From a virus (lineage: Duplodnaviria; Caudoviricetes), in IMG/VR virus record IMGVR_UViG_3300030392_000880, positions 1 through 38,170 of that record: a stretch of DNA of 38,170 nt; one strand, 5' to 3'. The first letter of the stretch is position 1. Each line of letters begins with the position of its first letter. Shown one piece after another: positions 8,995 to 21,032 of the stretch. The notes below the pieces were generated by a model. It did not search any database. It had not been told where the DNA came from and saw nothing but the letters and a program-made list of their open reading frames with translations. Position numbers and translations under genes: made by a program.

Positions 8995-9064
8995 TAACAA
9001 ATCCCTGCTAGGTGGAAATGCTTCATAAAAACACCTAACAGGGAATAAAAGGAATAAAACTATA
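8995..9064 (-). ncRNA. Candidate anti-RBS small RNA ending in a terminator-like hairpin
   Basis: 12-bp stem CCCUGUUAGGUG/CACCUAGCAGGG (U-G wobble only on - strand), U-rich tail, 5' single-stranded UUUUAUUCCUU; own extended -10 promoter. Confidence 0.5.
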
Positions 9065-9070
9065 GAATTT

Positions 9071-9079
9071 ATTATAGCA
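9071..9079 (-). promoter_or_regulatory. Extended -10 promoter TGCTATAAT
   Basis: Perfect TGnTATAAT with no downstream ORF before the hairpin. Confidence 0.55.
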
Positions 9080-9136
9080 CCTATATTCTAAACTTATAGA
9101 TTATTCGGAACGTATTCCAAATTATTAAAGACAGTT

Positions 9137-9310
9137 TTATTTTTTACTCTTTAGACTTTTGGGGTGAGGTTTGATATATCCATGTACTTTCCATTGTGTC
9201 CAATCAAACGAGTTGTAGTGCATTTGTTTTTTTCCACAATGACGACATATACCCATTGCCTCTTTACCATTAGGTGAAGGTAACATCCAATGATGAACAC
9301 ATGGTTTCAT
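9137..9310 (-). CDS. Small zinc-ribbon protein MKPCVHHWMLPSPNGKEAMGICRHCGKKQMHYNS... (57 aa, not in ORF track)
   Basis: CxH...CxxC; ATGA overlap with upstream gene. Confidence 0.8.
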   Translation of the reverse strand: MKPCVHHWMLPSPNGKEAMGICRHCGKKQMHYNSFDWTQWKVHGYIKPHPKSLKSKK

Positions 9311-9666
9311 TGTTCTAATTGGTGGGAATCCGTACCGTCAAATCCAAAACTATGGGTTTCAGCACAATGGTGTTTTTCATATGCAAATTCGGATTCTGTA
9401 CAATTTGCATCTCTACATAGTTGTTTTTCCCTATTCCAATAATGGCATATATTAGCATCGCAAATTTCCCATTCAACCTGAGTGAACCATACATTTTTTG
9501 TTTCTGTTTTTGTTTTTCTTTTTATAGCTTTAAAAGTACCTATAAAATTTTCAATATTACGTATCGTTCCACCACTTCGTACTGTGTCTCCCATTAGGAA
9601 TATTTTTATAGTGTCATTTTTGACTATTATCGGTAGTACAGATTTAGTTTTAATATTATTTTTCAT
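9307..9666 (-). CDS. Hypothetical protein with Cys/His-rich C-terminus
   Basis: 119-aa ORF coupled by ATGA overlaps at both ends. Confidence 0.65.
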   Translation of the reverse strand: MKNNIKTKSVLPIIVKNDTIKIFLMGDTVRSGGTIRNIENFIGTFKAIKRKTKTETKNVWFTQVEWEICDANICHYWNREKQLCRDANCTESEFAYEKHHCAETHSFGFDGTDSHQLEQ

Positions 9667-10181
9667 TTATTATCTTCTGTCATAAATTTATCAGGCAGTA
9701 TATTTTGTTTTTTAAATAGGTCACTCAATGGAATTAGGATACCTTTAGTAGGATTCCGTTCACTTCCACCTGATACTTTTTGCCATTCACCTTTTTGGTA
9801 CATAGTCTTTACCATTTTGTGTAACATAGACGTTTCAAAGATAAGGCCACAAAATATTTCATTATCGTATTCTAGGACCTGAATCCAGTATTCAGCTTTG
9901 GTTGTTTTTATTCCACTACTGTGACCAGAAGATGATACTTCAATAAAAACATTACCACTTTCGTTCCATTTATTTTTCTTATCCTTTATACCACGTTCTG
10001 TTTTGACTTCTACTTTTTTGTTAGCAAGTATTTGACCTAACTTATGTTCAAACTCTTGACCGAATTTTAAATCATATTCAAAAGTGTCATTACTTTTTAC
10101 TGTCCGCCCTGATTTTTTAATAACATTTTCGAGTATCTTTTGTTCTTTTTTTGATAAGGGTGTACTATCATTTTCTATCAT
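9663..10181 (-). CDS. PD-(D/E)XK-like nuclease family phage protein
   Basis: FEYDLKFGQEFE...VEVKTE...GNVFIEV...SGIKTTKAEYW; start set at coupled ATG 10181. Confidence 0.6.
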   Translation of the reverse strand: MIENDSTPLSKKEQKILENVIKKSGRTVKSNDTFEYDLKFGQEFEHKLGQILANKKVEVKTERGIKDKKNKWNESGNVFIEVSSSGHSSGIKTTKAEYWIQVLEYDNEIFCGLIFETSMLHKMVKTMYQKGEWQKVSGGSERNPTKGILIPLSDLFKKQNILPDKFMTEDNK

Positions 10182-10507
10182 AATAATTTTGCCTTTCTTG
10201 CAATTTTTATAAATGTATCCGACTCCATCATTACCCAATTAAGATTTCCAACATTTCCTTTTCGGCTTTGAGTAACACATAGTATAGGTAGTTGGTCACC
10301 TCTAATACTTGCCTTAGCCTGTTCCATACCATCAGATAAGCGTGTTGAAATAGTTTTACCTGCCTTGACCTCTATGGATAGGGTAGGGTGTTCTACATCA
10401 GGAGCGTCACCTCTCTGTCTACCTGTTATTGGTACACGCTTACCACCTAGTAACTCAGCCCACCATCTTTCGATAGCTTTCCAAGCACCTCTGGTTTTAA
10501 GTGCCAT
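10178..10507 (-). CDS. Putative Holliday junction resolvase (Hjc-like PD-(D/E)XK)
   Basis: IERWWAELLGGKR...GDAPDV...SIEVK...PILC motif order. Confidence 0.7.
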   Translation of the reverse strand: MALKTRGAWKAIERWWAELLGGKRVPITGRQRGDAPDVEHPTLSIEVKAGKTISTRLSDGMEQAKASIRGDQLPILCVTQSRKGNVGNLNWVMMESDTFIKIARKAKLL

Positions 10508-11171
10508 CAGGAGTCCATTCTCCGTCAGGGAATACTTCATCAGGGTCTATCAAAGGTTTATCTTCTGTATAATCAGCAAATGGTGTCTGTCCTTTCTTCA
10601 AGGCATAAAAACCATCCCAAAAATCTTTACGTAACTGAGTTATGTTTTGAATTTTGTTAGCTTTAATTAATGCAGAATCTGACTTACCCTGTTCAGAAGT
10701 CAAAAACTGTAACAGTAAGTTTAGTGATTGAGCCTTCTTGATAGATACATCAGTTGTTAACTTTGCCGTACTTGTTGGTTGGGTAGGTTTAACCTCACCA
10801 GATTCAACAGGTGTTGGTGCTACAGGAGTAGTGGTGGGTGTGTCAGAAGATAATTCCATTTTCTTTATCCTACCTTTATCTCCACGTAGTACAAGAGATA
10901 CTTGAACTACTGCTCCTTCGTCAAAGGTTGGTCCTTCGTACTTATCATATCCTAGAAAATTACCATCATCTCCTAGTCTAGCTTTACCTTGTACGTTCCA
11001 AATAAGACCTGTATATCCATTTTTATTTTTATTCTCATCTTCTTCAAAAGAGTATCCAGGGTTCTCAAAGTTGTTGAATACCCTTCGTACTGTAGCAGTT
11101 ACAGGTAAAAACCCTGTTCCTGAACCCTTAAACTCTTCATCTACTTCATATGGCCAACTATCTACTCTCAT
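10497..11171 (-). CDS. Putative single-stranded DNA-binding/recombination protein
   Basis: Beta-rich N-terminal half, P/T linker, acidic aromatic C-tail (DPDEVFPDGEW); AGGAGG before ATG 11171; replication module context. Confidence 0.4.
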   Translation of the reverse strand: MRVDSWPYEVDEEFKGSGTGFLPVTATVRRVFNNFENPGYSFEEDENKNKNGYTGLIWNVQGKARLGDDGNFLGYDKYEGPTFDEGAVVQVSLVLRGDKGRIKKMELSSDTPTTTPVAPTPVESGEVKPTQPTSTAKLTTDVSIKKAQSLNLLLQFLTSEQGKSDSALIKANKIQNITQLRKDFWDGFYALKKGQTPFADYTEDKPLIDPDEVFPDGEWTPDGT

Positions 11172-11374
11172 TATTGCCCTCCTTTTAGGGTGTTGATTTC
11201 TGATTCCCATTTCTCGAAATTGTCTTTGTATAGTCCTGATGGACCACCATCACCACGTCTCCACCTACGAACAGTTTCGATACTTGTACATCCTACCCTA
11301 TCTTGTATTTGTCTCATCGTAATACCACTTTTTACTAAAATGTCTATACGTTCAGCCCAACTTATATCATTCAT
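11171..11374 (-). CDS. Cro/XRE-like helix-turn-helix regulator
   Basis: GITMRQIQDRVGCTSIETVRRWRRGDGGP; AGGAGGT Shine-Dalgarno before ATG 11374. Confidence 0.8.
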   Translation of the reverse strand: MNDISWAERIDILVKSGITMRQIQDRVGCTSIETVRRWRRGDGGPSGLYKDNFEKWESEINTLKGGQ

Positions 11375-11410
11375 AATACCTCCTTTAGGTCTAGCTATAA
11401 GTTTAATAAT

Positions 11411-11440
11411 ATTATATAACAACAACCACGAAAACATCAA
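11411..11440 (-). promoter_or_regulatory. Sigma70-type promoter TTGATG-18-TATAAT
   Basis: Directly upstream of the HTH gene. Confidence 0.65.
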
Positions 11441-11775
11441 CTATCAATCCACCATTTTTCTACTTTTTCTGAGTTATCTTCACATCCCCCACAAACAAAT
11501 GGTGCTTTCTCTGGACATTCTTGACCTTCTCCAAAGATACAACCTTCAAACCATGCGTGTTCACGTAACCATCTATCCTCGATAACACCTTTGAGAAGTT
11601 CATCCCAAAAGTCATCCCAATTCGGGCTATCATCTGTTACTTTCCAAGCAGGATGAGTTCGGTTTTCACACATTTCGTTATATATGTCGTGGATTTTTTT
11701 CATCCTGGTTATAACCGACAGTTGAAATGCTTCCTCTTGTTGTTTATTCATTTTTACCATTTTTTTGGATTCCAT
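11437..11775 (-). CDS. Hypothetical protein with C-terminal Cys cluster
   Basis: 112-aa ORF; GCIFGEGQECPEKAPFVCGGC. Confidence 0.7.
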   Translation of the reverse strand: MESKKMVKMNKQQEEAFQLSVITRMKKIHDIYNEMCENRTHPAWKVTDDSPNWDDFWDELLKGVIEDRWLREHAWFEGCIFGEGQECPEKAPFVCGGCEDNSEKVEKWWIDS

Positions 11776-13898
11776 AATTTATTATCTGTCACATCTTGTT
11801 GCGTTTCAGAAACACCACCATCACCCCCCTTAAAGGGGGTGAGTGGTTCATTGTGTGTTTTTGTCACAGGTGAAACGCTTTGTGAAACGTCTTTAGGTAT
11901 ATAATATTGACTACTGTCATTATGTTTAATTTCGTTTCTGTCTAACATTCTTTTTAGTGTCGTTCTTATAGTATTGTTGGGAACATTTGTTTGTTCCGAT
12001 ATTTCAGCAGGTGTTAATTGCATACCATTTTTTAAGAGTGCTAATATCTGTTGCTTGACAGGTAATTTTGTAACCAAATTTTCATATTCTGCTAATTCAG
12101 CTTCTGAGTAATGAATAGAAGTTGTATTGCCATTATCGTCTGCTTCAAATTTTGCAGTCAATCCAATCGGATTTAATAAACCATTTGTTCTGTTACCTTT
12201 TTTGTGAAATAATCCTATAGTAGAAAAGTTTTCACCTTGTTCTTGTTGTTTTTCAATTTTCCATATATTTCGTGCATAGTTCCAATAAAATATAGAACCA
12301 AAAGGTGTATTGTCATCACCACTTTTTTTGGTGTGTGTAATACCAATACTAGAGATATCTAGCATATTCATACATTCAAAATAAATCCTCGCTGCCTCAG
12401 CGTCATTTACATCTTGCCCTGCACTTGCAACTATTGAATCGACAAGAACAAGTTCTACCATGTTTTCAGAAATATCTCGTTGAATATCATCCATATGGTC
12501 CACTAACGAACCTGCCATTTTTTTATACATGATTGGATAATCAGGTTCTGGTTTATTTGCACCATAAAGTAGAGCATTTTTTACATAATAAAATTCATCT
12601 TTACTTGATTCCCAATCTAACATAAGAACAGCTTTTGGATTACTTTCTACCCATGTACCTGGGATTATAGTATGCCCTAAAGCAACACTTAGTAATATTG
12701 CTATACCAACTGTTGATTTACCTTCACCACCCATACCCATTATCAAACTAGGTTGTTTTACCCTAGCAAATGGCCTTAACATCCAAGGAGATGTACTCTC
12801 TGGAGTGTAATTCCTCATATCAATAGCATCAGACCTAGGGTCGATACTATCAGCTACAAGTTTTGCCACCTGGTCTATTGCTACCAACCAATTCTGTTGC
12901 TCTCTATCGTTTAGTTGTCGAATAAGACCTGCTCTTGCAGAAGATGACAGTAAATTTATTCTTACTGGTCCATAAAATTGTGGATTCGATTCTATTCCAA
13001 TACGTATCCAACAATGGATTCCATCATTCTTCATATTTATTCTACTGGCTTCAATAGAGAATCCTGCATCTAACCAACGAAATACTCTTTTATTCGCTAT
13101 ATTCACATCTACTATTGGATTTTCTAATCCTTGACCTTGATATGTAGTATCGGATATTTGATATCTCCATGCACTTTTTACAATGTTTAGTAATTCAGTC
13201 TCTTTCATTGGTGGAGAACATCTCTCTCTAAACTGTTGCATTATTGCAGTAGTCATATCTTCTGCGATTCCCTTTTTTCTAAAATAACCAGCTAACCTAA
13301 TCCCTGCATCATTTCTTTGACCTTCAGGTACACCATCAGTAAGGTACTCGGTTACCCATGTGGGTTGCTCTGATACTGTTTTGTTCTCTGAAACGTCTCT
13401 TTGACGATTCTGTGGGTCGTATGACCTAAAGAACCGTGATAGTGAATCCCATGTTGAAACATCTTTGTCTTTATGAACAGAATATTTTTGTCCGTCTATC
13501 TCACTAGGAGGTGCAACGATATATCCACCTTCATTTCGTATGTCTAGTTTTTCAAGAAATCCTGCACCCTGTGGATAAATAGGATTGTATAACAAAATGT
13601 AATGATAACCTTTTATAGTTTTATGTGTTAGAGTTTCTGGTCTGTCTGTTATGCCACTGTCTGTTAAAGCTTTCATTGCTTCTTTTCCATCAATATCAAT
13701 TACTGATATCCCAGACTGTTGACCTGTAGCTATCCCAATATTGTATTTAGGATTCTGTTTCCACCATTTAGTTATCTGTTCTATGTCGGTGGTGGCACTT
13801 TTAAAACCATCAGAGGTTGCAGGTGCTTTAGCATTTTCTTTTAGGGGAAAAACTCTCCACCCTTTTTTTGCGTATTTTATAGCTTCATTTAACATCAT
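11754..13898 (-). CDS. Bifunctional primase-polymerase + PriCT + RepA/AAA_25-type helicase + winged HTH
   Basis: GWRVFPL..K.P, NIGIATG..VIDID, GYHY, DIRNEGGYIVAPPS (PrimPol); GQRND (PriCT); GMGGEGKST Walker A; LVLVDS Walker B; TPAEISEQT..TIRTTLKRM wHTH. Confidence 0.93.
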   Translation of the reverse strand: MMLNEAIKYAKKGWRVFPLKENAKAPATSDGFKSATTDIEQITKWWKQNPKYNIGIATGQQSGISVIDIDGKEAMKALTDSGITDRPETLTHKTIKGYHYILLYNPIYPQGAGFLEKLDIRNEGGYIVAPPSEIDGQKYSVHKDKDVSTWDSLSRFFRSYDPQNRQRDVSENKTVSEQPTWVTEYLTDGVPEGQRNDAGIRLAGYFRKKGIAEDMTTAIMQQFRERCSPPMKETELLNIVKSAWRYQISDTTYQGQGLENPIVDVNIANKRVFRWLDAGFSIEASRINMKNDGIHCWIRIGIESNPQFYGPVRINLLSSSARAGLIRQLNDREQQNWLVAIDQVAKLVADSIDPRSDAIDMRNYTPESTSPWMLRPFARVKQPSLIMGMGGEGKSTVGIAILLSVALGHTIIPGTWVESNPKAVLMLDWESSKDEFYYVKNALLYGANKPEPDYPIMYKKMAGSLVDHMDDIQRDISENMVELVLVDSIVASAGQDVNDAEAARIYFECMNMLDISSIGITHTKKSGDDNTPFGSIFYWNYARNIWKIEKQQEQGENFSTIGLFHKKGNRTNGLLNPIGLTAKFEADDNGNTTSIHYSEAELAEYENLVTKLPVKQQILALLKNGMQLTPAEISEQTNVPNNTIRTTLKRMLDRNEIKHNDSSQYYIPKDVSQSVSPVTKTHNEPLTPFKGGDGGVSETQQDVTDNKLWNPKKW
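11787..11890. other. Candidate replication origin inside the 3' end of the primase-helicase gene
   Basis: Palindrome TCACCCCC-CTTAAA-GGGGGTGA flanked by GTTTCA/TGAAAC and TGTCAC repeats. Confidence 0.5.
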
Positions 13899-13916
13899 AA
13901 TCCTTTCTTAAATAAA

Positions 13917-14010
13917 TGTGGTAACACAAGAAGATGACTACGAGATGAAACGTAGAATTGACAGGGAATTTTTTATTTACCAGGAAGGATTCCCTACTTG
14001 CGTTACCACA
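13917..14010 (-). ncRNA. Three-way-junction RNA with antisense loops (C4/CI-like architecture)
   Basis: 14-bp closing stem UGUGGUAACGCAAG/CUUGUGUUACCACA (G-U on - strand), hairpins AGGGAAU/AUUCCCU and CUACG/CGUAG; intergenic. Confidence 0.7.
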
Positions 14011-14019
14011 ATAAATAGT

Positions 14020-14028
14020 TTACTTCAT
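14020..14028 (-). other. Minigene ATG-AAG-TAA with GGAAGG Shine-Dalgarno (14033-14038)
   Basis: - strand reads GGAAGGTTAG ATG AAG TAA immediately 5' of the three-way-junction RNA. Confidence 0.4.
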
Positions 14029-14046
14029 CTAACCTTCCATGTGTAC

Positions 14047-14451
14047 CTATTTTGCTTTTATTTCTATGTATCTTTTTTCTTGTACTTTAGCATTTCTGAT
14101 AATATCTCCCACATCACCAGAAGAAGTTATGTACTTGTTAGCTTCTCTTACGCTAACTTCTTTCTTTTCTTTTGTAACAACTAACTTATCAAATTCTTCA
14201 TCAGAAATAAACTCTTTTATGGGTTCAAGAAATGATGGTTCATAGACAGGCGTTCTCTGTATCCGAACATTATATTCATTTGACCAAAGTTTCTTATGGT
14301 CCTTACCAATACGTTTGTCGATTTCATCATCTAGCATTTGCCTTCGGTATCGTAGAACATTTTGTTCCTCTCGTACCTGTTTAGCTAATGCAATGACTGT
14401 TTCGTCATCCATTCCTGGTAAATCCATTTGTAATGTATGCCAATTATCCAT
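14047..14451 (-). CDS. Hypothetical protein
   Basis: 134 aa, AAAGGA Shine-Dalgarno. Confidence 0.75.
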   Translation of the reverse strand: MDNWHTLQMDLPGMDDETVIALAKQVREEQNVLRYRRQMLDDEIDKRIGKDHKKLWSNEYNVRIQRTPVYEPSFLEPIKEFISDEEFDKLVVTKEKKEVSVREANKYITSSGDVGDIIRNAKVQEKRYIEIKAK

Positions 14452-14479
14452 AATTATTAATTCCTTTCTTTATTTGAAA

Positions 14480-14551
14480 TGGTGGAGGTGGTGGGAATCG
14501 AACCCACGTTAGTAGAAAATAAGGAAAATCTACTGTATACCAATCACCCCC
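14480..14551 (-). ncRNA. Mini-tmRNA: tRNA-like domain only
   Basis: GGGGGUG-AUUGGUAUAC-AGUAGA-UUUUCCUUAUUU-UCUACU-AAC-GUGGG-UUCGAUU-CCCAC-CACCUCC-ACCA: 7-bp acceptor stem with G3-U70, discriminator A, encoded CCA, canonical T arm, no D stem, 3-nt linker. Confidence 0.85.
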
Positions 14552-14558
14552 ATTGTTA

Positions 14559-15017
14559 TTATTTATTATCTAAAAAATGTTCATCACATGGTTCATAGAT
14601 ATTTAATCTATAACTTTTTGTTAATCCCTTTTGACTAGAAATAAGACATCCTAGACGTTCCATACGATTAATTCGTTCTTTAGTCCAACTTACCCCTAAT
14701 CCAGATTTTGATGCTATTTCTTTTATTTTCATAACTGATGTTCTACCATCAAGTGATTCTCCAGCAAGTATCATTAATATTGCTAAATCAACTGGGAGTT
14801 TTTCCTTAATTTGTTCCCAGTGTTTACTAGCCGATGAGGAAGCTCTAATCATCAACCCTAATGATTCATAGTGATTTCTTTGATGTATTTCGTGATTAAG
14901 TTTTATTACTTCCTTTTCTAATTCTGTAACTCTTTTCTTCAAGTCTCGTACCCAACTTTTAGTTTGGATATAGATTTGTGTTATATCGTGTTCAGTTTGT
15001 GTTATTCTGTCCGTCAT
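14559..15017 (-). CDS. Coiled-coil plus C-terminal winged-helix DNA-binding protein
   Basis: MKIKEIASKSGLGVSWTKERINRMERLGCL...KSYRL wHTH pattern. Confidence 0.65.
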   Translation of the reverse strand: MTDRITQTEHDITQIYIQTKSWVRDLKKRVTELEKEVIKLNHEIHQRNHYESLGLMIRASSSASKHWEQIKEKLPVDLAILMILAGESLDGRTSVMKIKEIASKSGLGVSWTKERINRMERLGCLISSQKGLTKSYRLNIYEPCDEHFLDNK

Positions 15018-15174
15018 TTCTTTTTTTTACTCCTTCGTTCCATATGTTATTTACGGAAAAAATTACATTTCTATGTTTATTATTAATCACTACTCCGTTT
15101 TCTCTTATCACTGTTGATACTTCAACATTGGTAATTTTATTGTCTTTCATATCTATATAAACTTCTGTTGTCAT
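14992..15174 (-). CDS. Hypothetical protein (MTTEVYID...)
   Basis: AGGAGGA Shine-Dalgarno; TAATG coupling. Confidence 0.65.
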   Translation of the reverse strand: MTTEVYIDMKDNKITNVEVSTVIRENGVVINNKHRNVIFSVNNIWNEGVKKRNDGQNNTN

Positions 15175-15380
15175 TATTCCTCCTTTACACAATCTGATAT
15201 ATCTATTTCTAAATCACCAGCTTCCTGAACCAACATTTCTTCAGGAAGGGTTTCTAAATATTCCTGTACTGCTAGTTGAATCAAAGCTACTGTCTGTGTA
15301 GATATTCCTTTACGTTCTATAGCATAATTTGTGTCGTCAAGTATCCTATCCACAAGTGATAATCTATCGTATATACTCAT
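15174..15380 (-). CDS. Hypothetical protein
   Basis: AGGAG Shine-Dalgarno, TGATG coupling. Confidence 0.7.
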   Translation of the reverse strand: MSIYDRLSLVDRILDDTNYAIERKGISTQTVALIQLAVQEYLETLPEEMLVQEAGDLEIDISDCVKEE

Positions 15381-15625
15381 CAGTTATTCTCCTGTTCTTT
15401 CTTTGTTTTCTCGCAAGATGTTTGACATTCTATGCACATATAACCTTCTACAGTTACATGATATGTTTTACCGGATAGAACGAGTTCTGCATCAGCATCA
15501 CTAGGTATTCGATTGACGAATAATCCAGTACCAAACGAGGTATCTTTTCCACAAGACGTACAACGATTTCCTAAATCTATGTCTGGAAAGTTGAAGTCCA
15601 TAGTTATGTCTAAATGTTTACCCAT
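15380..15625 (-). CDS. Small CxxC...CxxC zinc-binding protein
   Basis: RCTSCGKDTSFG..FVNRIP...YMCIECQ. Confidence 0.75.
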   Translation of the reverse strand: MGKHLDITMDFNFPDIDLGNRCTSCGKDTSFGTGLFVNRIPSDADAELVLSGKTYHVTVEGYMCIECQTSCEKTKKEQENN

Positions 15626-15846
15626 CAGTTATTCTCCTTTTGCATTTTGTTAAATTCTTTTTTTGCTCTTGCTATCTGATTGTCAAAATGCACGTTACTC
15701 ATTTCGTTATGAATAAACGCTAACTTTTCGTCAGATAAAGTAGCAACATATATTGGATTTTGTTTTCTCCACGATTTGATAAAAGTTTCTAGATGTGGAA
15801 AGAATTTATCCTTTGGATACCCTGTTATAGGGTCTAATTTACTCAT
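15625..15846 (-). CDS. Hypothetical protein
   Basis: AGGAG Shine-Dalgarno, TAATG coupling. Confidence 0.7.
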   Translation of the reverse strand: MSKLDPITGYPKDKFFPHLETFIKSWRKQNPIYVATLSDEKLAFIHNEMSNVHFDNQIARAKKEFNKMQKENN

Positions 15847-16034
15847 TACTTATTCTCCTGTTCGATTTCGTTTATTTCATATTCAACATTTAACAACTTG
15901 GTATCAACTCCATGAGTGAGTTGAGTGAGTTCGTTCCAAGTAGAATTATCTTGTAGCATTTCGTTAGCTTCCTCTTCACTGTTTGCTTCTATTTCTTCGT
16001 GCCAAGTAGCTACAAATATTACTTCATATCTCAT
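15846..16034 (-). CDS. Small acidic phage protein (IEANSEEEA motif)
   Basis: YEV...EIEANSEEEA pattern common in small phage early proteins; coupled. Confidence 0.7.
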   Translation of the reverse strand: MRYEVIFVATWHEEIEANSEEEANEMLQDNSTWNELTQLTHGVDTKLLNVEYEINEIEQENK

Positions 16035-16273
16035 TATTTATTCTCCTGTTCTTCTAGTACATCAAACGAAAACGTATACGTTATGTAGTCGTATTCGTAA
16101 GGTGCAATTAGTTTTTCTCCTGTTTTATGCCATATGACAGGACACTTGTCTAGCCATGTTTCAAACTCTTCTGGTATGTTATATCCAGGTCTGTCCATTG
16201 GTACGTTGCTATTCTCCAGTTCCTTATTTTGTTTCTTCAGTTCATCATTTTCTTTTTGTAAATCTTTATCCAC
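16034..16273 (-). CDS. Hypothetical protein (GTG start)
   Basis: AAGGAG Shine-Dalgarno; FETWLDKCPVIW. Confidence 0.7.
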   Translation of the reverse strand: MDKDLQKENDELKKQNKELENSNVPMDRPGYNIPEEFETWLDKCPVIWHKTGEKLIAPYEYDYITYTFSFDVLEEQENK

Positions 16274-16394
16274 CGTTATTCTCCTTGTATATTTCGTTGC
16301 CCATTAATCCACTCATCATCTCTATAAATGCAACTTTTGAGTCTGCATCGTCTAGGTGGTTCAAGATATATTGAATTTCTTTTGTGTAAATCAT
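16266..16394 (-). CDS. Hypothetical 42-aa protein MIYTKEIQYILNHLDD... (not in ORF track)
   Basis: GGGAG Shine-Dalgarno, ATGA overlap; its end supplies the next gene's RBS. Confidence 0.6.
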   Translation of the reverse strand: MIYTKEIQYILNHLDDADSKVAFIEMMSGLMGNEIYKENNGG

Positions 16395-16582
16395 CTGTTG
16401 TTCTCCCTGTGTTTATATTCCATTTCATCTCGATATTCTATGTAACATTCAATGCACATAGACTTTACATTTGGTGGTAATGAAACACCACCTACGAATC
16501 TGTCATCAGTAGCTAGTATCTTTTTATCAACAAACTCACTACACGTCTGACATTTTATCTTTATCATCTTTAAAACTTTCAT
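16391..16582 (-). CDS. Small CxxC...CxxC zinc-binding protein
   Basis: KCQTCS...MCIECY; AGGAAGGA Shine-Dalgarno. Confidence 0.7.
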   Translation of the reverse strand: MKVLKMIKIKCQTCSEFVDKKILATDDRFVGGVSLPPNVKSMCIECYIEYRDEMEYKHRENNR

Positions 16583-16727
16583 CTTTATTTTCCTTCCTGG
16601 AAATGTTAGTTGTTACGTCTTTGTTATCTGGTAATAATATTGGTTTTATTATTGCATCAATCATCATATCCATAGCTTTCGCATACTGTTTCATAACTTG
16701 TTCATCGTTATTATTTATTTCTTTCAT
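16539..16727 (-). CDS. Hypothetical protein
   Basis: AAGGT Shine-Dalgarno; 62 aa. Confidence 0.5.
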   Translation of the reverse strand: MKEINNNDEQVMKQYAKAMDMMIDAIIKPILLPDNKDVTTNISRKENKDESFKDDKDKMSDV

Positions 16728-16737
16728 TTTATAACCT

Positions 16738-17187
16738 TTATTTATCCTTGTTTAATTCTTTTAGGCTTTCTTCTCTACCCACATGGTCATTATGGTCGCA
16801 ATGCTCAATGATGTCATCATACTGAAAGATAGCCGTATTCTCTAAATCGATAAACCTAGAGGTAATCCCTGTACCATAATCCTTTAGATATACAACCATT
16901 GCACGACCATCTTCTGTGTAATGTACTCCAAGTTTCGGCTCTTTATATACTTGATTTATTACATCGAAATATTGTAAAGGTTTATTATTACCAATATAAA
17001 AAGCTTTTTCTTTTGGACAAAATTCAGGACACCACCAAAAATCCCTATCATACATATGAAATTTTATATGTGTATCTCTTTTGGTATTATCCCAACACCA
17101 CACTTCGTGTGTGAATTTTGAATCTGACCAATCAAGATTGTTATTGATTGTACTTCTTCTTATCCACCTTATTTCGTCATTTGTCAT
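16738..17187 (-). CDS. Hypothetical early protein
   Basis: 149 aa, AGGAAGGT Shine-Dalgarno, first gene after a consensus promoter. Confidence 0.75.
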   Translation of the reverse strand: MTNDEIRWIRRSTINNNLDWSDSKFTHEVWCWDNTKRDTHIKFHMYDRDFWWCPEFCPKEKAFYIGNNKPLQYFDVINQVYKEPKLGVHYTEDGRAMVVYLKDYGTGITSRFIDLENTAIFQYDDIIEHCDHNDHVGREESLKELNKDK

Positions 17188-17230
17188 AATTTATAACCTT
17201 CCTTTTTAGATTATTTTGTTTATATTATCT

Positions 17231-17259
17231 ATTATACCACAACCACAACAACTTGTCAA
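17231..17259 (-). promoter_or_regulatory. Consensus sigma70 promoter TTGACA-17-TATAAT with TG extension
   Basis: TTGACAagttgttgtggttgtggTATAAT. Confidence 0.9.
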
Positions 17260-17292
17260 TTCTTATTTGTATCTCCTTCCTTAATTTATTAC

Positions 17293-17469
17293 TTACAAAT
17301 AACCGACAAAGTATCCATCTTCATCAGTTATAGAAATTCTTGCTTTGTTTGGGTTCTTGTCAATCTTTACAACTTTGTAAATCCAATCATCATCATTGTT
17401 TAATTTTGATGTAAGCTCAATTGCTTTGGATATTGAAAAGATTGTTTCTATATGTTTTATAATTTGCAT
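17293..17469 (-). CDS. Hypothetical 58-aa protein MQIIKHIETIFSISKAIEL...DEDGYFVGYL (not in ORF track)
   Basis: TAAGGA Shine-Dalgarno; open frame fills the gap. Confidence 0.75.
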   Translation of the reverse strand: MQIIKHIETIFSISKAIELTSKLNNDDDWIYKVVKIDKNPNKARISITDEDGYFVGYL

Positions 17470-17470
17470 T

Positions 17471-17653
17471 TTATTTTTTCCTTATTATATGGTCATGTAA
17501 CTCCAGGTATTCTTTCATACCTTCAATTGCATCTAATCTATCAGTTAGGCAGGGAACACCAGAATCATTGATGTTACATTCAAGTCCTAGCTTAATTCCT
17601 TTCCCTAATTCAGCTAATCTTTTTAAGTCATTATCTGTTAGAGTATTACTCAT
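17471..17653 (-). CDS. Hypothetical protein (MSNTLTDNDL...)
   Basis: GGAG Shine-Dalgarno before ATG 17653. Confidence 0.7.
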   Translation of the reverse strand: MSNTLTDNDLKRLAELGKGIKLGLECNINDSGVPCLTDRLDAIEGMKEYLELHDHIIRKK

Positions 17654-17864
17654 CGTTATTCTCCAATTCATTTATCCATGTTTTCCATATTTCTTCTTCC
17701 GTTACCGTTCTTCCCAGTTGTTTTTCTACCAATCTCCATTGCTTTAGTAACTTCTTTTCTTTCTGGTATGCTTGACGATTTGAAATTTCCCCATCTTCAT
17801 GTAAATTTTCGGGGGATAATTCTCCGACAAGGAACTCAAACTTCTGTCGTTGTTCTTTGTTCAT
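17646..17864 (-). CDS. Hypothetical phage protein (LSPENLHEDGE motif)
   Basis: 72 aa, TAAGGA Shine-Dalgarno; its RBS is complementary to the mini-tmRNA loop. Confidence 0.75.
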   Translation of the reverse strand: MNKEQRQKFEFLVGELSPENLHEDGEISNRQAYQKEKKLLKQWRLVEKQLGRTVTEEEIWKTWINELENNDE

Positions 17865-17884
17865 AATTATTTTCCTTATTTTTG

Positions 17885-18002
17885 TTAGTTACTATATCGT
17901 GATAGTGATTTTGCACCATCACTAGGTTTTATATTTATTGCAATGTGTACAATGTTCACCTATATCAATATTTAAATTATTTATTTTTATTTCAGTCATC
18001 AT
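17885..18002 (-). pseudogene. Truncated/frameshifted paralog of the 15380-15625 zinc protein, or a 26-aa peptide
   Basis: MMTEIKINNLNIDIGEHCTHCNKYKT-stop versus IDLGNRCTSCGK; shifted frame continues PSDGA versus PSDAD; strong AAGGAAGG Shine-Dalgarno. Confidence 0.45.
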
Positions 18003-18183
18003 AATTTCCTTCCTTATCCATTTGGATATTCATAGAAATAATTTTTATTGGATTACATTGATTCGTTAATTGGTGTACTCCATCTATACCAATTTCGTCT
18101 CGATATTCGGAACATTGAACATAAATCACTATACCGAATTTATTTAAGAATTTTGTTAAATCTTTATTCAAATAATTTTGCAT
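17992..18183 (-). CDS. Hypothetical early protein
   Basis: AGGAAGGT Shine-Dalgarno. Confidence 0.65.
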   Translation of the reverse strand: MQNYLNKDLTKFLNKFGIVIYVQCSEYRDEIGIDGVHQLTNQCNPIKIISMNIQMDKEGNYDD

Positions 18184-18200
18184 TTTAACCTTCCTTTATT

Positions 18201-18449
18201 TTAGTTTGATGTTACTTTTATATATTGTCTGTGGTTTATACATTTGAAATAATCATAATCAGAATCTGAATACACATACATATAATTATTTCTTATATCT
18301 GTACATTCTTCTAGATGTTCATCATTTACACTTTGATTGTATATTTCCAATGTATTAACTTTTAAATGTTCTTTGAAATGCTTGTTGGCATCTGTAAAAA
18401 CCTTTTCAACGTTATCTTTTATAAAATAATTTGTACTTTTTACTGTCAT
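18201..18449 (-). CDS. Hypothetical early protein
   Basis: GAGGA Shine-Dalgarno; YMYVYSDSDYDYFK. Confidence 0.7.
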   Translation of the reverse strand: MTVKSTNYFIKDNVEKVFTDANKHFKEHLKVNTLEIYNQSVNDEHLEECTDIRNNYMYVYSDSDYDYFKCINHRQYIKVTSN

Positions 18450-18452
18450 AAT

Positions 18453-18668
18453 TTATTCCTCATTATTAACTTTATTTTTCCAATTTTTTAACTGTTCTTT
18501 TTGATTTTCTAATTCTTTACAATATTCATTAACATTGAATGAACGTTTTCCAGTGAAAAAATCAATATGATATCTACCATCAGAAATATTTTTAATCAGC
18601 ATCTTTACGTATTCTATTTCTTTATCAATTGCTTGATTAAAATGTTTATGTTTATCTGAAATTTGCAT
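18453..18668 (-). CDS. Hypothetical early protein
   Basis: TAAGGA Shine-Dalgarno. Confidence 0.7.
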   Translation of the reverse strand: MQISDKHKHFNQAIDKEIEYVKMLIKNISDGRYHIDFFTGKRSFNVNEYCKELENQKEQLKNWKNKVNNEE

Positions 18669-18679
18669 TTTTTTATTCC

Positions 18680-19057
18680 TTATTTCACTAATTCTTCATA
18701 CTTTAATTTTTCAAATTCTTTTATATCTTCTTTACTGATAGATTTTTTCAAGAATTTTTTATGTTTTATTCCTAATGCTTTCCCTTTTAAGTTTGTAATT
18801 TTTCCATACAAAACATCGTCATAATCTATTTTTCTTTTATTCGATTGACTTCCTTCTATCATGTTTTGAATTAAAAATAGTTTAGATGCTATTGGAACAC
18901 TTGCGTTATATTTTCGATTCCATGAATAATTCCATGTATCCCTATATAACTTTTCTTCTTTTTGTATATCCCTATACAATGAACGTATTAAGTCATCGCT
19001 ATCAGGTAATTTACCAAATAACTTATTTATTAATTTTTCCTGTTCAGATGTAATCAT
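18680..19057 (-). CDS. Hypothetical early protein
   Basis: 125 aa, AAGGGAG Shine-Dalgarno. Confidence 0.75.
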   Translation of the reverse strand: MITSEQEKLINKLFGKLPDSDDLIRSLYRDIQKEEKLYRDTWNYSWNRKYNASVPIASKLFLIQNMIEGSQSNKRKIDYDDVLYGKITNLKGKALGIKHKKFLKKSISKEDIKEFEKLKYEELVK

Positions 19058-19084
19058 CTTTTAATTTCTCCCTTATTTTTTTTT

Positions 19085-19143
19085 ATAAAATTAGTAGTTT
19101 TATTTTCATTTTGGTTAAAACTACCAAAAACCTCAAATTTTAT
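19085..19143 (-). ncRNA. H-type pseudoknot enclosed by an 8-bp stem in the leader of 18680-19057
   Basis: GGUU/AACC and GGUAGUUUU/AAAACUACU with UUU loop 1 and A-rich loop 3; closing AUAAAAUU/AAUUUUAU. Confidence 0.5.
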
Positions 19144-19245
19144 TTCAATTAATTTTTCTCCTGTATTTGAATTGTTTACATACATAAATAAAGTTATGCA
19201 TCAAATTTATTAACTCCCTTCTTTTTTTATTTATAATTAATAAAA

Positions 19246-19521
19246 CTATTTTTTAGTTATCGAAATAATTTTCCAACTTTTTTTATCCAGTTCAATAGCA
19301 CGTTTTATTAAACCTATATGTTGTCGTGTTGTTACACTTCTAAAACCTGTACATTCTTCTATTTTATCTATGGAATAATCCCAAATATACTTATCGTAAA
19401 TATTGGCAATTTTTAATCCATAACTAAAAAGACTTCCATCTCTAACAGTTAAGTTTTGACTGTTCATAGATATTCCCCAATCATTTTTGAGAAATTTTTG
19501 TATGACTTCTTGATTTGTCAT
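19246..19521 (-). CDS. Hypothetical early phage protein
   Basis: MTNQEVIQKFL...LFSYGLKIA...SVTTRQH pattern recurring in phage early genes; TAAGGA Shine-Dalgarno. Confidence 0.75.
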   Translation of the reverse strand: MTNQEVIQKFLKNDWGISMNSQNLTVRDGSLFSYGLKIANIYDKYIWDYSIDKIEECTGFRSVTTRQHIGLIKRAIELDKKSWKIISITKK

Positions 19522-19549
19522 TTTATTTAATCCTTATTTTTTTATTTAT

Positions 19550-19707
19550 AAACCTGGATTCGATTCGGTGATAGTGAAAACTAAATAACTTTTATATTGT
19601 CAGTTAATAAGTAAAGTATTGTAGAAACAATAATTATAATCTTCTAGTTACTAACCGAATCAATTGATTATTTAGTTTTCATTTATCACATTTTTGAATC
19701 TTGGTTT
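19550..19707 (-). ncRNA. Large structured 5' leader or ncRNA
   Basis: Nested helices AAACC/GGUUU, GAUUC/GAAUC, GUGAUA/UAUCAC, UGAAAACUAAAUAA/UUAUUUAGUUUUCA, UCGGUUAGUAA/UUAUUAACUGA; G-U pairs favour the - strand. Confidence 0.65.
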
Positions 19708-19745
19708 GATTTTTTTTATTAAGTTTTATTTTTTTGTATACTACT

Positions 19746-19774
19746 ATTATAACATATATTATTGTTGTTGTCAA
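19746..19774 (-). promoter_or_regulatory. Consensus sigma70 promoter TTGACA-17-TATAAT with TG extension
   Basis: TTGACAacaacaataatatatgtTATAAT. Confidence 0.9.
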
Positions 19775-19778
19775 GTGT

Positions 19779-20003
19779 TTATACTTTTATTTTATAAGTT
19801 TTAGTTATTCCTATAACTCTAGTATTAACGCTCTTCTCTTTGTATGGGTTTATAGTAAAGCCATCAGTACTGTTTAAAAAGTGCATGTGTATTTTTGATT
19901 TATGACTATTCGCGAATGAAGTATTTATCATTCTTGAATTTCCGACAAACCGTCTTACCCTTTTACCCTTCACTTCTATATTCATAAAGTTTGATTGTCT
20001 CAT
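19779..20003 (-). CDS. Hypothetical basic early protein
   Basis: AGGAG Shine-Dalgarno; lies directly downstream of the hammerhead. Confidence 0.65.
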   Translation of the reverse strand: MRQSNFMNIEVKGKRVRRFVGNSRMINTSFANSHKSKIHMHFLNSTDGFTINPYKEKSVNTRVIGITKTYKIKV

Positions 20004-20026
20004 CTTTTTAACTCCTGGTTATAATT

Positions 20027-20080
20027 CCTGTTTCGACCTTGTTTTTGGTCCTCATCAGTAACGTTCTTACGCTAGACAGG
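20027..20080 (-). ncRNA. Type III hammerhead ribozyme
   Basis: CCUGUC|UAGCGU-AAGA-ACGUUA-CUGAUGA-G-GACC-AAAAACAA-GGUC-GAAA-CAGG: full core, three stems, GUC cleavage triplet. Confidence 0.93.
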
Positions 20081-20082
20081 TT

Positions 20083-20113
20083 AGGGTTTTTGAATAGATA
20101 CCCTCAAACTATT
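20083..20113. other. Compact H-type pseudoknot adjacent to the hammerhead
   Basis: - strand AAUAG-UUUG-AGGGU-AU-CUAUU-CAAAA-ACCCU; strand not resolvable from pairing alone. Confidence 0.45.
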
Positions 20114-20116
20114 TAT

Positions 20117-20365
20117 TTATTCACTTCTAAAATATCTATCAGGAAAACATTCAATTTCTGGAGCTATTTTCATAAAACTTAATAACTCTTTTATTCTTTT
20201 TTCATAATATAGACTGAAGCCGTTATCGTATTTATCTAGATTTTTTTTGTTTTCATTTTCCATCAATCTTTCGTATTTATCCCGGAGGTTTTGATTGAGA
20301 AAAAATTCTCTTGTTATTTGACCCTCAATTACTTTAGTTAAATTTAATTTATTTAAATCTGACAT
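20117..20365 (-). CDS. Hypothetical first early gene
   Basis: 82 aa, TAAGGA Shine-Dalgarno. Confidence 0.7.
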   Translation of the reverse strand: MSDLNKLNLTKVIEGQITREFFLNQNLRDKYERLMENENKKNLDKYDNGFSLYYEKRIKELLSFMKIAPEIECFPDRYFRSE

Positions 20366-21032
20366 AATATTTATAATCCTTATTTATTTATTAGTTAATA
20401 ATTTATATTAATAATAGTACGTGTTATTGTTGCTATTGTATATAGTTGTCAAGTCTTTTTTAAACTATTTTTAAAATGGGTAAGTATTCCTTAAATGATT
20501 AATTGATGAGTTAAGCAGTAGTGCACCACATAAGGAAATCATAAGACAATGAATAAGCCCATCCAATTGTTAAGCAGTATGTAACCACCATTTTATTTAA
20601 TGGGTGTCTTATTTAATAATCCTCCCGCGTGAGTAAAAAAAATAATTAATTAGCTCATAGTTAAATGATGCGATTTTTTAGGGATTATATATTTAATGTT
20701 CATCGTCAATCATTCCCAGATATTTTAGCTCATATGTTCTATTTTTAAGGGTATAATCACCAGTAACGCCGATACACGAAGGGAGGTATATATATATAGG
20801 GGTACACCCTTCTTGCGCTGAGTATGATATATTAGTTTAGGTGTTTCAGTAGCGTTTCTTAAGTGTGACAAGTGTTTCACTGAGTATAGAATCTACCGTT
20901 TCACCTATTACCCCCCCCTTTTAAGGGGGGAATATGAAACGAAACATTAACTAAGTTAATTAGGTTAATATTAAGTTAATTAAGTTAAGTTAAAAAAAGA
21001 AAATAGATAAAGAAAAAAGGATATGTTGATAT
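20366..21032. promoter_or_regulatory. Divergent non-coding control region (early/late promoters, probable packaging and origin signals)
   Basis: No ORFs; strand switch point; TTAAGCAGTA direct repeat (20511, 20570), TA run, CCCCCCTT-TT-AAGGGGGG palindrome, GTTTCA repeats, TAAGTTAAT repeats. Confidence 0.7.

What the first reader, a model, noticed from the sequence alone, without database searches (positions are those of the whole stretch)
8995..18681. Possible multi-RNA antisense shut-off system for early genes
Three separate intergenic - strand RNAs with unrelated scaffolds (mini-tmRNA 14480-14551, three-way junction 13917-14010, hairpin sRNA 8995-9064) each expose a pyrimidine-rich single strand. 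Each is complementary to a different RBS flavour in the early cluster: UAAGGAAAA, CCAGGAAGGA and AAGGAAUAAAA. Two of them also carry anti-AUG segments. All lie transcriptionally downstream of their targets. Inference: delayed negative feedback that silences probably toxic host-takeover genes once replication genes are expressed. Caveat: the genome is AT-rich and short SD-like matches can arise by chance, and the same loops could instead target host mRNAs.
Basis: inference. Interest (0 to 1): 0.85.

Follow-up and report, generated by a model that had tools for sequence, protein, structure and literature searches.

The report
Phage RNAs mirroring own ribosome sites
This marine phage carries three non-coding elements predicted to fold into small RNAs, one built on a tag-less tmRNA head, whose open loops are complementary to the ribosome-binding sites of its own early genes, and related phages each carry an element matched to their own different sites, so these RNAs likely switch off blocks of early genes by base pairing.

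Summary
Observation confirmed; core idea supported; timing and toxicity not shown. The window is a near-complete 38-kb marine phage. All three elements exist on the - strand and fold better than shuffles. The mini-tmRNA loop has a 14-nt complement at an early start site and matches 7 of 20 early sites at >=9 nt (P=0.001 with the Shine-Dalgarno core fixed). The three-way junction's 10-nt match is also beyond chance (P=0.005). The hairpin RNA's match alone is not (P=0.41), nor are most anti-AUG segments. The deciding evidence is comparative. Ten related phage genomes each carry a structured element, mostly where early and late transcription converge. In 9 of 10 it fits its own early start sites best (0 of 200,000 permutations). 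Against: one later-found lineage failed; a prospective test in cluster K mycobacteriophages failed; 10 of 20 early genes are unmatched; no RNA product was seen. The hairpin RNA has its own promoter box, so 'delayed' is unproven. Closest known: P1/P7 c4 antisense RNA and the DS6A tag-less tmRNA. This scan noted such anti-RBS RNAs and mini-tmRNAs before on other DNA; a guide loop inside a mini-tmRNA (1 of 31 here) gave no earlier hit.

The parts
14480..14551 (-). Tag-less mini-tmRNA (acceptor stem, T arm, encoded CCA, G3-U type pair) whose only extra arm ends in an open 12-nt loop
   Evidence: Rfam RF00023, 51 bits; fold; 72 nt identical in L046; in L047 identical up to the discriminator region while both flanks differ
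14517..14528 (-). Guide loop UUUUCCUUAUUU of the mini-tmRNA
   Evidence: unpaired probability about 0.9; 7 of 20 early start regions match >=9 nt, P=0.001
13917..14010 (-). Three-way-junction RNA, 19 nt before the primase-polymerase start
   Evidence: z -7.5; 2 compensatory changes and 1 broken pair among 27 pairs in 3 sequences, 44 of 500 shuffles as high
13980..13989 (-). Guide segment UCCUUCCUGG in loop 1 of the junction RNA
   Evidence: 10-nt complement at 16591-16600, P=0.005; UCCUUCCU core kept in L047 while the rest of the loop changed
13931..13950 (-). Loop 2 (13943-13950) and junction strand (13931-13937), each with a CAU (anti-AUG) triplet; weak evidence
   Evidence: 7-nt matches to the AUG of ORF 16391-16582, mostly not significant; both CAU kept in L047
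14017..14045 (-). Possible promoter of the junction RNA (TACACA-17-TAAACT, ending 6 nt before 14010); weak
   Evidence: read from the sequence; -10 kept, -35 changed in L047; not listed by the promoter scan
8995..9063 (-). Hairpin small RNA: single-stranded 5' tail (9044-9059, two UUUAUUCC repeats), 13-bp stem with a G-U pair, U-rich tail; sits where early and late transcription converge
   Evidence: z -5.1; one of two terminator-type hairpins found in the genome; positional counterpart of guide RNAs in relatives
9071..9079 (-). Extended -10 box TGCTATAAT, 7 nt before the predicted 5' end of the hairpin RNA
   Evidence: TGnTAnnnT box 45-59 nt before the terminator hairpin in G001, G002, G003, G004
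17869..17882 (-). Best target of the mini-tmRNA loop: RBS of ORF 17646-17864 (14 nt)
   Evidence: net -10.1 kcal/mol
17476..17486 (-). Target: RBS of ORF 17293-17469 (mini-tmRNA, 11 nt)
18671..18685 (-). Target: RBS of ORF 18453-18668 (hairpin RNA 11 nt, mini-tmRNA 10 nt)
16587..16600 (-). Target: RBS of ORF 16391-16582 (junction RNA 10 nt, mini-tmRNA 9 nt)
18452..18460 (-). Target: RBS of ORF 18201-18449 (hairpin RNA, 9 nt)
19071..20385 (-).
14992..20365 (-). Cluster of about 20 small AT-rich ORFs taken as early genes (inferred from two 12-of-12 sigma-70 promoters at 19746-19774 and 17231-17259); mosaic between close relatives
11754..13898 (-). Primase-polymerase/helicase gene directly after the junction RNA
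   Evidence: Pfam Prim-Pol, PriCT_1, AAA_25

Best explanation
The three elements are likely small RNAs of the phage whose exposed strands are predicted to pair with lineage-specific tags around the Shine-Dalgarno sequences of its own early genes and would so block ribosome loading on many of them at once. Shown: the complementarity, its enrichment on early start sites, the RNA-type stems with G-U pairs on the mRNA strand, and the matched change of guide and tag between lineages. Inferred: that the RNAs are made as discrete species. The hairpin RNA would come from its own promoter and terminator. The mini-tmRNA would be cut from the early transcript by tRNA-processing enzymes, its tRNA-like head serving as a stable carrier. 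The junction RNA would come from a promoter at its 5' end. Also inferred: that pairing represses, because the duplex covers the SD; and that the purpose is to end early synthesis as the RNAs accumulate. The hairpin RNA is the clade-wide component. The loop in the mini-tmRNA looks like an addition of this lineage. The junction RNA is the least certain of the three.
For: Window statistics. With accessibility, mini-tmRNA duplexes favour early over late start regions (p=0.0009; 7 of the top 10 early). Matches >=8 nt through the SD: 10 of 20 early, 2 of 10 middle, 2 of 26 late (early vs late p=0.002). In a 10x10 table of RNA against early-strand start regions, the own genome is best or tied in 9 of 10 by mean top-5 match; 0 of 200,000 permutations reach it, and P=0.0002 among the 7 lower-GC genomes. 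Summed over the ten, matches >=9 nt fall on 45 of 209 own early-strand starts and 3 of 200 own late-strand starts. Of four lineages found after the pattern was noticed, three rank their own genome first (G044, G046; G034 tied), and G034's RNA was found at the predicted place. Several guides match tag sequence outside the SD (GAGAAUCAAU in 11 of 19 G003 starts; AUGAAUAAG in G008). Among 31 distinct tag-less tmRNAs, only this one has an open loop matching start sites. The mini-tmRNA loop still matches 7 start regions in L046, whose early cluster is largely different.
Against: No transcript evidence: the one RNA run laid gave no contig on the hairpin RNA, and contigs cannot show ends. The hairpin RNA's own match is within chance (P=0.41-0.56), and its row in the matrix is nearly tied by G034 (8.8 vs 8.4). 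Junction and hairpin RNAs show no class-wide preference with accessibility (p=0.09, 0.13). Net predicted energies are only -8 to -10 kcal/mol. 10 of 20 early genes are unmatched at >=8 nt, among them seven with GGAGAA-type sites, and no UUCUCCU exists on the - strand at 8.9-21 kb. G005's RNA fits other genomes better than its own (rank 5-6 of 10), and G013's best match is 8 nt. The mini-tmRNA loop also matches 3 of 22 G008 starts at >=9 nt. RNA boundaries in relatives were set by hand after seeing them, and lineages are not fully independent. The unselected hairpin set shows no bulk own-genome excess (strong 9 of 59, weak 21 of 154 own-best). The prospective cluster K test failed.
Confidence: 0.62

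Rival explanations
1. Same pairing, other purpose: the RNAs are made constitutively and keep early genes silent in a carrier or pseudolysogenic state, and block superinfecting kin with the same tags. Tags and guides diversify because that gives heteroimmunity, as with c4 of P1 versus P7.
For: Own sigma-70-type box in front of the hairpin RNA and of four of six relatives checked. Lineage-private tags. c4 differences underlie P1/P7 heteroimmunity (PMC12197685, passages).
Against: No integrase or clear repressor among 53 ORFs scanned. Half of the early genes are unmatched. The mini-tmRNA and junction RNA lie inside the early/replication unit.
Confidence: 0.17
2. Only the terminator-ended hairpin RNA is a guide. 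The mini-tmRNA acts only as an SmpB decoy or tag-less rescuer with an incidental U-rich loop, and the junction is a cis element of the primase-polymerase leader.
For: Tag-less tmRNAs without such a loop are common (44 loci; 30 of 31 lack it). The DS6A form or a similar molecule inhibits host tmRNA (PMC4131195, PMC11915505, passages). The junction ends 19 nt before the prim-pol AUG, its AAUCCUU can pair with that gene's AAGGAUU, and G008's hairpin at the same place has an 11-nt match just downstream.
Against: The mini-tmRNA loop has the strongest statistics of the three. The prim-pol RBS is unpaired in the predicted fold. The junction's best predicted target is an early gene.
Confidence: 0.12
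3. The loops are aimed at host mRNAs or are generic anti-SD sponges, and matches to phage genes follow from shared SD sequence.
For: All three window guides contain UCCU. G005 and G014 loops are near-generic anti-SD. The host is unknown, so host start sites could not be scored.
Against: Own late-strand starts, which use the same ribosomes, match in 3 of 200 cases against 45 of 209 early-strand starts. Guides follow lineage tags outside the SD.
Confidence: 0.05
4. Chance or neutral relics: AT-rich composition, or inverted scraps of RBS DNA left by recombination in a mosaic region.
For: The hairpin RNA's match and most anti-AUG segments are within chance.
Against: Placement in loops of stable stems between promoter box and U tract in many lineages; permutation result among low-GC genomes P=0.0002-0.0008.
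Confidence: 0.04

Closest known systems
c4 antisense RNA of phages P1 and P7 (PMC12197685, passages; original work not read)
   Same: Phage-encoded, trans-acting, short complementary segments exposed in loops, binds around a ribosome-binding site of the phage's own mRNA and blocks translation; sequence differences between relatives.
   Different: c4 controls the ant (antirepressor) message of a temperate immunity region. Here each RNA matches a tag repeated before up to 11 unrelated early genes, scaffolds differ between lineages, and no Rfam C4 hit exists.
TLD-only tmRNA of mycobacteriophage DS6A (PMC4131195, PMC11915505, passages; Mao et al. 2009 not read)
   Same: tmRNA acceptor stem and T arm without the tag reading frame, in a phage.
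   Different: The single extra arm ends in an open 12-nt anti-RBS loop; the other 30 distinct forms seen have predicted loops of 3-10 nt with no match >=8 nt to nearby starts.
T4 RegB endoribonuclease and RegA repressor (PMC3014915, passages)
   Same: Class-wide post-transcriptional inactivation of early messages through a motif at the translation start.
   Different: Proteins, with a fixed motif; here the reader of the motif would be RNA and the motif differs by lineage.
Start-associated sequences (SAS) of cluster K mycobacteriophages (PMC3203893, passages)
   Same: A repeated, one-orientation motif over the RBS of non-structural genes, extending beyond 16S pairing; the authors left open whether an RNA or protein binds it.
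   Different: No cognate RNA was named there. In K1 phages the single reverse copy lies in a hairpin loop (4 of 10 phages examined), but loop and SAS did not covary in three other phages.

Membership tests
tmRNA (standard, RF00023) | tRNA-like domain: Ala-type acceptor stem with G3-U pair, T arm, CCA | tested here: met
   cmscan alignment, 51 bits
tmRNA (standard, RF00023) | mRNA-like domain with tag reading frame and pseudoknots | tested here: not met
   306 model positions replaced by 19 nt
TLD-only phage tmRNA (DS6A type) | Both tmRNA ends kept, no tag frame, phage genome | tested here: met
   type described in PMC4131195
TLD-only phage tmRNA (DS6A type) | SmpB binding and inhibition of host trans-translation | not testable with these tools
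   needs bench work
c4 / C4 antisense RNA | Sequence-structure match to Rfam C4 models | tested here: not met
   no hit at E<=1 in the window; none at gathering score in 7 relative loci
c4 / C4 antisense RNA | Target is an antirepressor (icd-ant) leader in an immunity region | tested here: not met
   no antirepressor, integrase or repressor family named among 53 ORFs
c4 / C4 antisense RNA | Loop-exposed segments complementary to the phage's own RBS region (works-like feature) | tested here: met
Trans-encoded base-pairing sRNA | Own promoter, unpaired seed, intrinsic terminator | tested here: inconclusive
   motifs present for the hairpin RNA; consensus matches only; weak for the junction RNA; none for the mini-tmRNA
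Trans-encoded base-pairing sRNA | Discrete RNA is expressed | tested here: inconclusive
   only contigs of one RNA run; no contig on the hairpin RNA
Trans-encoded base-pairing sRNA | Pairing-dependent repression of targets | not testable with these tools
   covariation only
SAS-type repeated start motif | Repeated one-orientation motif over the RBS of non-structural genes, conserved beyond 16S pairing | tested here: met
   AAUAAGG-type and GGAGAAUA-type repeats in the window; lineage tags

The most novel reading that the evidence does not exclude
A phage-wide addressing system: early genes carry private tags at their ribosome-binding sites, newly acquired genes pick up a tag by recombination, and interchangeable RNA scaffolds (terminator hairpins, a three-way junction, even a tag-less tmRNA) display the matching guides. 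In this lineage a tmRNA head has become a guide carrier, possibly one molecule that both titrates SmpB and silences early mRNAs. Tag-guide divergence would separate self from kin.
Probability: 0.35. Interest if true: 0.9.

Novelty: new variant of a known kind. Interest (0 to 1): 0.76.

Why it matters
How lytic phages stop making early proteins is understood in few cases; the T4 case is protein-based (PMC3014915). An RNA-guided, class-wide switch that re-matches itself in each lineage would be a second solution. It would give a testable reading of the repeated start motifs left unexplained in cluster K mycobacteriophages (PMC3203893). The natural cognate and non-cognate pairs found here form a ready cross-test matrix, and possibly orthogonal translation switches. 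A tag-less tmRNA carrying a guide loop would add a new use for these common, mostly unannotated phage RNAs.

Tried and rejected
Prim-pol searches of viral contigs with the single protein and the close alignment, and of GTDB genomes with the prim-pol and terminase alignments, found nothing; so no host was identified. The only hint is one 38%-identical homolog labelled Chloroflexi; cluster look-ups gave no organism names. Pattern scans for the junction stem (26 loci) and the hairpin stem (3 loci) returned unrelated sequences. A scan for mini-tmRNAs holding UCCU gave 3 loci, none with an open anti-SD loop. BLAST of 13900-14600 against cultured phages gave one 41-nt tRNA match. The L086/L088 hairpin first flagged lies far upstream among opposite-strand sequence and was dropped. 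Cluster K prediction, written beforehand: changed loops in Amohnition, Amgine and TClif should go with changed SAS. It failed: they keep GGGATAGGAG in 14-16 copies and their loops match at most 6-7 nt. One search missed G005, G013, G028, G034 and G046 (threshold, contig end, spurious ORF, wrong strand); they were found on a second look. G030 (29% complete) has none. G014 has only a generic anti-SD loop and G015's element lies in the early cluster; these two and truncated G028 were left out of the matrix. L280 was fetched but not scanned. Runs X3 (possible source of the DNA) and X20 (share 0.11) are not used as support.
Full report
Context. The window is a virus record of 38,170 bases, 98% complete, whose first bases recur near its end. 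It has a terminase, a major capsid protein and very long + strand genes, and a - strand arm with a primase-polymerase/helicase, a resolvase-like gene and about 20 small AT-rich ORFs. Two 12-of-12 sigma-70 promoters lie in that cluster. I call it 'early' by inference. Runs holding it are marine. The host is unknown.

The observation. The three elements are real sequence features that fold better than shuffles. The first is a tmRNA reduced to its tRNA-like domain. That form is published for phage DS6A (PMC4131195, PMC11915505; passages) and recurs in 44 viral loci. What is unusual is its loop. It is open, 12 nt long, and the exact complement of the commonest early RBS; among 31 distinct tag-less tmRNAs only this one has such a loop (start sites of the others were known only within 6-10 kb). 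The longest complement of this RNA in the whole genome is an early RBS (14 nt). With target SD cores fixed, 7 of 20 early starts match at >=9 nt against 1.6 expected (P=0.001). The junction's 10-nt match has P=0.005. The hairpin RNA's 11-nt match has P=0.41. Shuffling the guide instead is less kind to the mini-tmRNA once UCCU is kept (P 0.14-0.27) because its flanks are nearly all U; with random flanks the match length has P 0.002. The anti-AUG segments are mostly within chance. Together the RNAs cover 10 of 20 early, 2 of 10 middle and 2 of 26 late starts at >=8 nt through the SD.

Close relatives. L046 (98% prim-pol) keeps the mini-tmRNA unchanged and the junction with one loop change, while much of its early cluster is different; its loop still matches 7 starts. 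L047 (95%) keeps the mini-tmRNA between changed flanks. Its junction shows two compensatory pair changes and one broken pair, with changed loops that keep UCCUUCCU and both CAU triplets (three sequences only, 44 of 500 shuffles as high). L047's early genes are not held, so retargeting could not be tested. Contigs from three other runs show a variant 5' tail of the hairpin RNA on a nearly unchanged hairpin; it matches two other start sites of the window at 10 nt.

Distant relatives. Prim-pol and terminase searches gave related phage records (regions). An unselected scan of 389 intergenic hairpins showed a tail of long matches to own start regions (15 of 389 at >=9 nt). These belonged to a few elements with a common plan: an extended -10 box, one or two hairpins with open loops or linkers, and a U tract, usually where early and late transcription meet, the place of the window's hairpin RNA. 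Each guide fits its own tags: G003 GAGAAUCAAU, G004 AGCGAAAGGAA, G008 AUGAAUAAG and GAGUAAGA, G001 AGAAGAGAG and GGAGAAUCA. With six lineages the own genome was best in 6 of 6 (rank 1 of 720). With seven, and three choices of upstream length, it was best in 5-7 of 7 (rank 1-5 of 5040; 1-4 of 144 within GC class). Of 15 records scanned, 13 have such an element and a 14th (G014) a generic anti-SD loop; G030 is a fragment without one. In the final 10x10 table the own genome is best or tied in 9 of 10 by top-5 match and in 8 of 10 by fraction >=9 nt (one of these, G013, a tie at zero). The permutation counts are 0 and 1 of 200,000; among seven lower-GC genomes P=0.0002 and 0.0008. Own early-strand starts match at >=9 nt in 45 of 209 cases, own late-strand starts in 3 of 200. 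Caveats: the rule was formed after seeing six lineages; boundaries were set by hand; gene starts come from a simple caller; G004/G005 are kin; G005 fails. Three of the four later lineages rank first by top-5.

Beyond the clade. Pope et al. (PMC3203893, passages) left the cluster K start-associated sequence unexplained and noted one reverse copy in K1 phages. That copy lies as a 10-nt terminal loop in a long hairpin on the coding strand in Anaya, Angelica, Niklas and SgtBeansprout, within an element found in 150 records. But 6 of 10 phages examined lack the exact loop, and my advance prediction of covariation failed. It is a lead, not support.

Mechanism. Most likely the RNAs pair with SD-spanning tags and block 30S binding on blocks of early genes (0.62). 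Shown: complementarity, enrichment, covariation. Inferred: expression, processing, repression, purpose. Timing is open because the hairpin RNA has its own promoter box; constitutive silencing or kin exclusion is the main rival (0.17). Toxicity of the targets is untested. Half of the early genes are unmatched.

Known and new. It works like c4 of P1/P7 (PMC12197685, passages) but fails the family tests. Its logic parallels T4 RegB/RegA (PMC3014915, passages). Nine literature searches (listings, plus passages of five papers) showed no phage RNA that targets a tag shared by a class of the phage's own genes, and no tag-less tmRNA with a guide loop. The library lacks most subscription papers, and no supplements were read. 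This scan's earlier notes describe anti-RBS phage RNAs and mini-tmRNAs in other genomes; these are unchecked AI notes, and one search came after my covariation result. A search for the combination returned none, and none were found for this clade. Verdict: new variant of a known kind, interest 0.76.

Noticed in passing
window 15380-17653 (-): Seven early genes not matched by any of the three RNAs have GGAGAA-type sites; six read GGAGAAUAA, close to the T4 RegB consensus GGAGRAYARAA given in PMC3014915. No RegB family hit among the ORFs scanned.
   Followed up: partly
L164 31871-31883 (phage Anaya, gp96-gp97 gap): The single reverse SAS copy is the terminal loop of a long hairpin inside a conserved multi-hairpin element (150 records, no annotation as RNA in the listed rows). 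Exact anti-SAS loop only in 4 of 10 phages examined.
   Followed up: partly
L089 8809-8844 and 9120-9199 (G013): In this relative the anti-RBS hairpin and an ordinary mini-tmRNA are separate neighbours about 280 nt apart; in the window guide loop and mini-tmRNA are one RNA.
   Followed up: no
L083 9920-9958: Hairpin just before the prim-pol gene (the place of the window's junction RNA) whose loop matches a leader motif 18 nt downstream and three other leaders at 11-14 nt: cis pseudoknot, trans guide, or both.
   Followed up: partly
window 14412-14423 (-): The junction's loop 1 has a 12-nt complement inside the coding region of the gene directly upstream (codons 9-13), longer than its RBS match.
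   Followed up: no
L047 673-800: About 126 extra bases directly 5' of the mini-tmRNA, absent from the window and L046.
   Followed up: no
window 19540-19745 (-): Non-coding stretch after the first strong promoter, 94% identical in L046 although neighbouring genes differ; not folded or explained.
   Followed up: no
L079 4170-7400; L259 1399-4283: Early genes of G004 sit in repeated promoter-gene-terminator cassettes, and a GTGTACAC palindrome recurs after terminators or before start sites in G004, G005 and G030; possible operator.
   Followed up: no
L046 13775-15454: Two ORFs that look like DNA methyltransferases by eye replace window 9310-10180 in this 98% relative.
   Followed up: no
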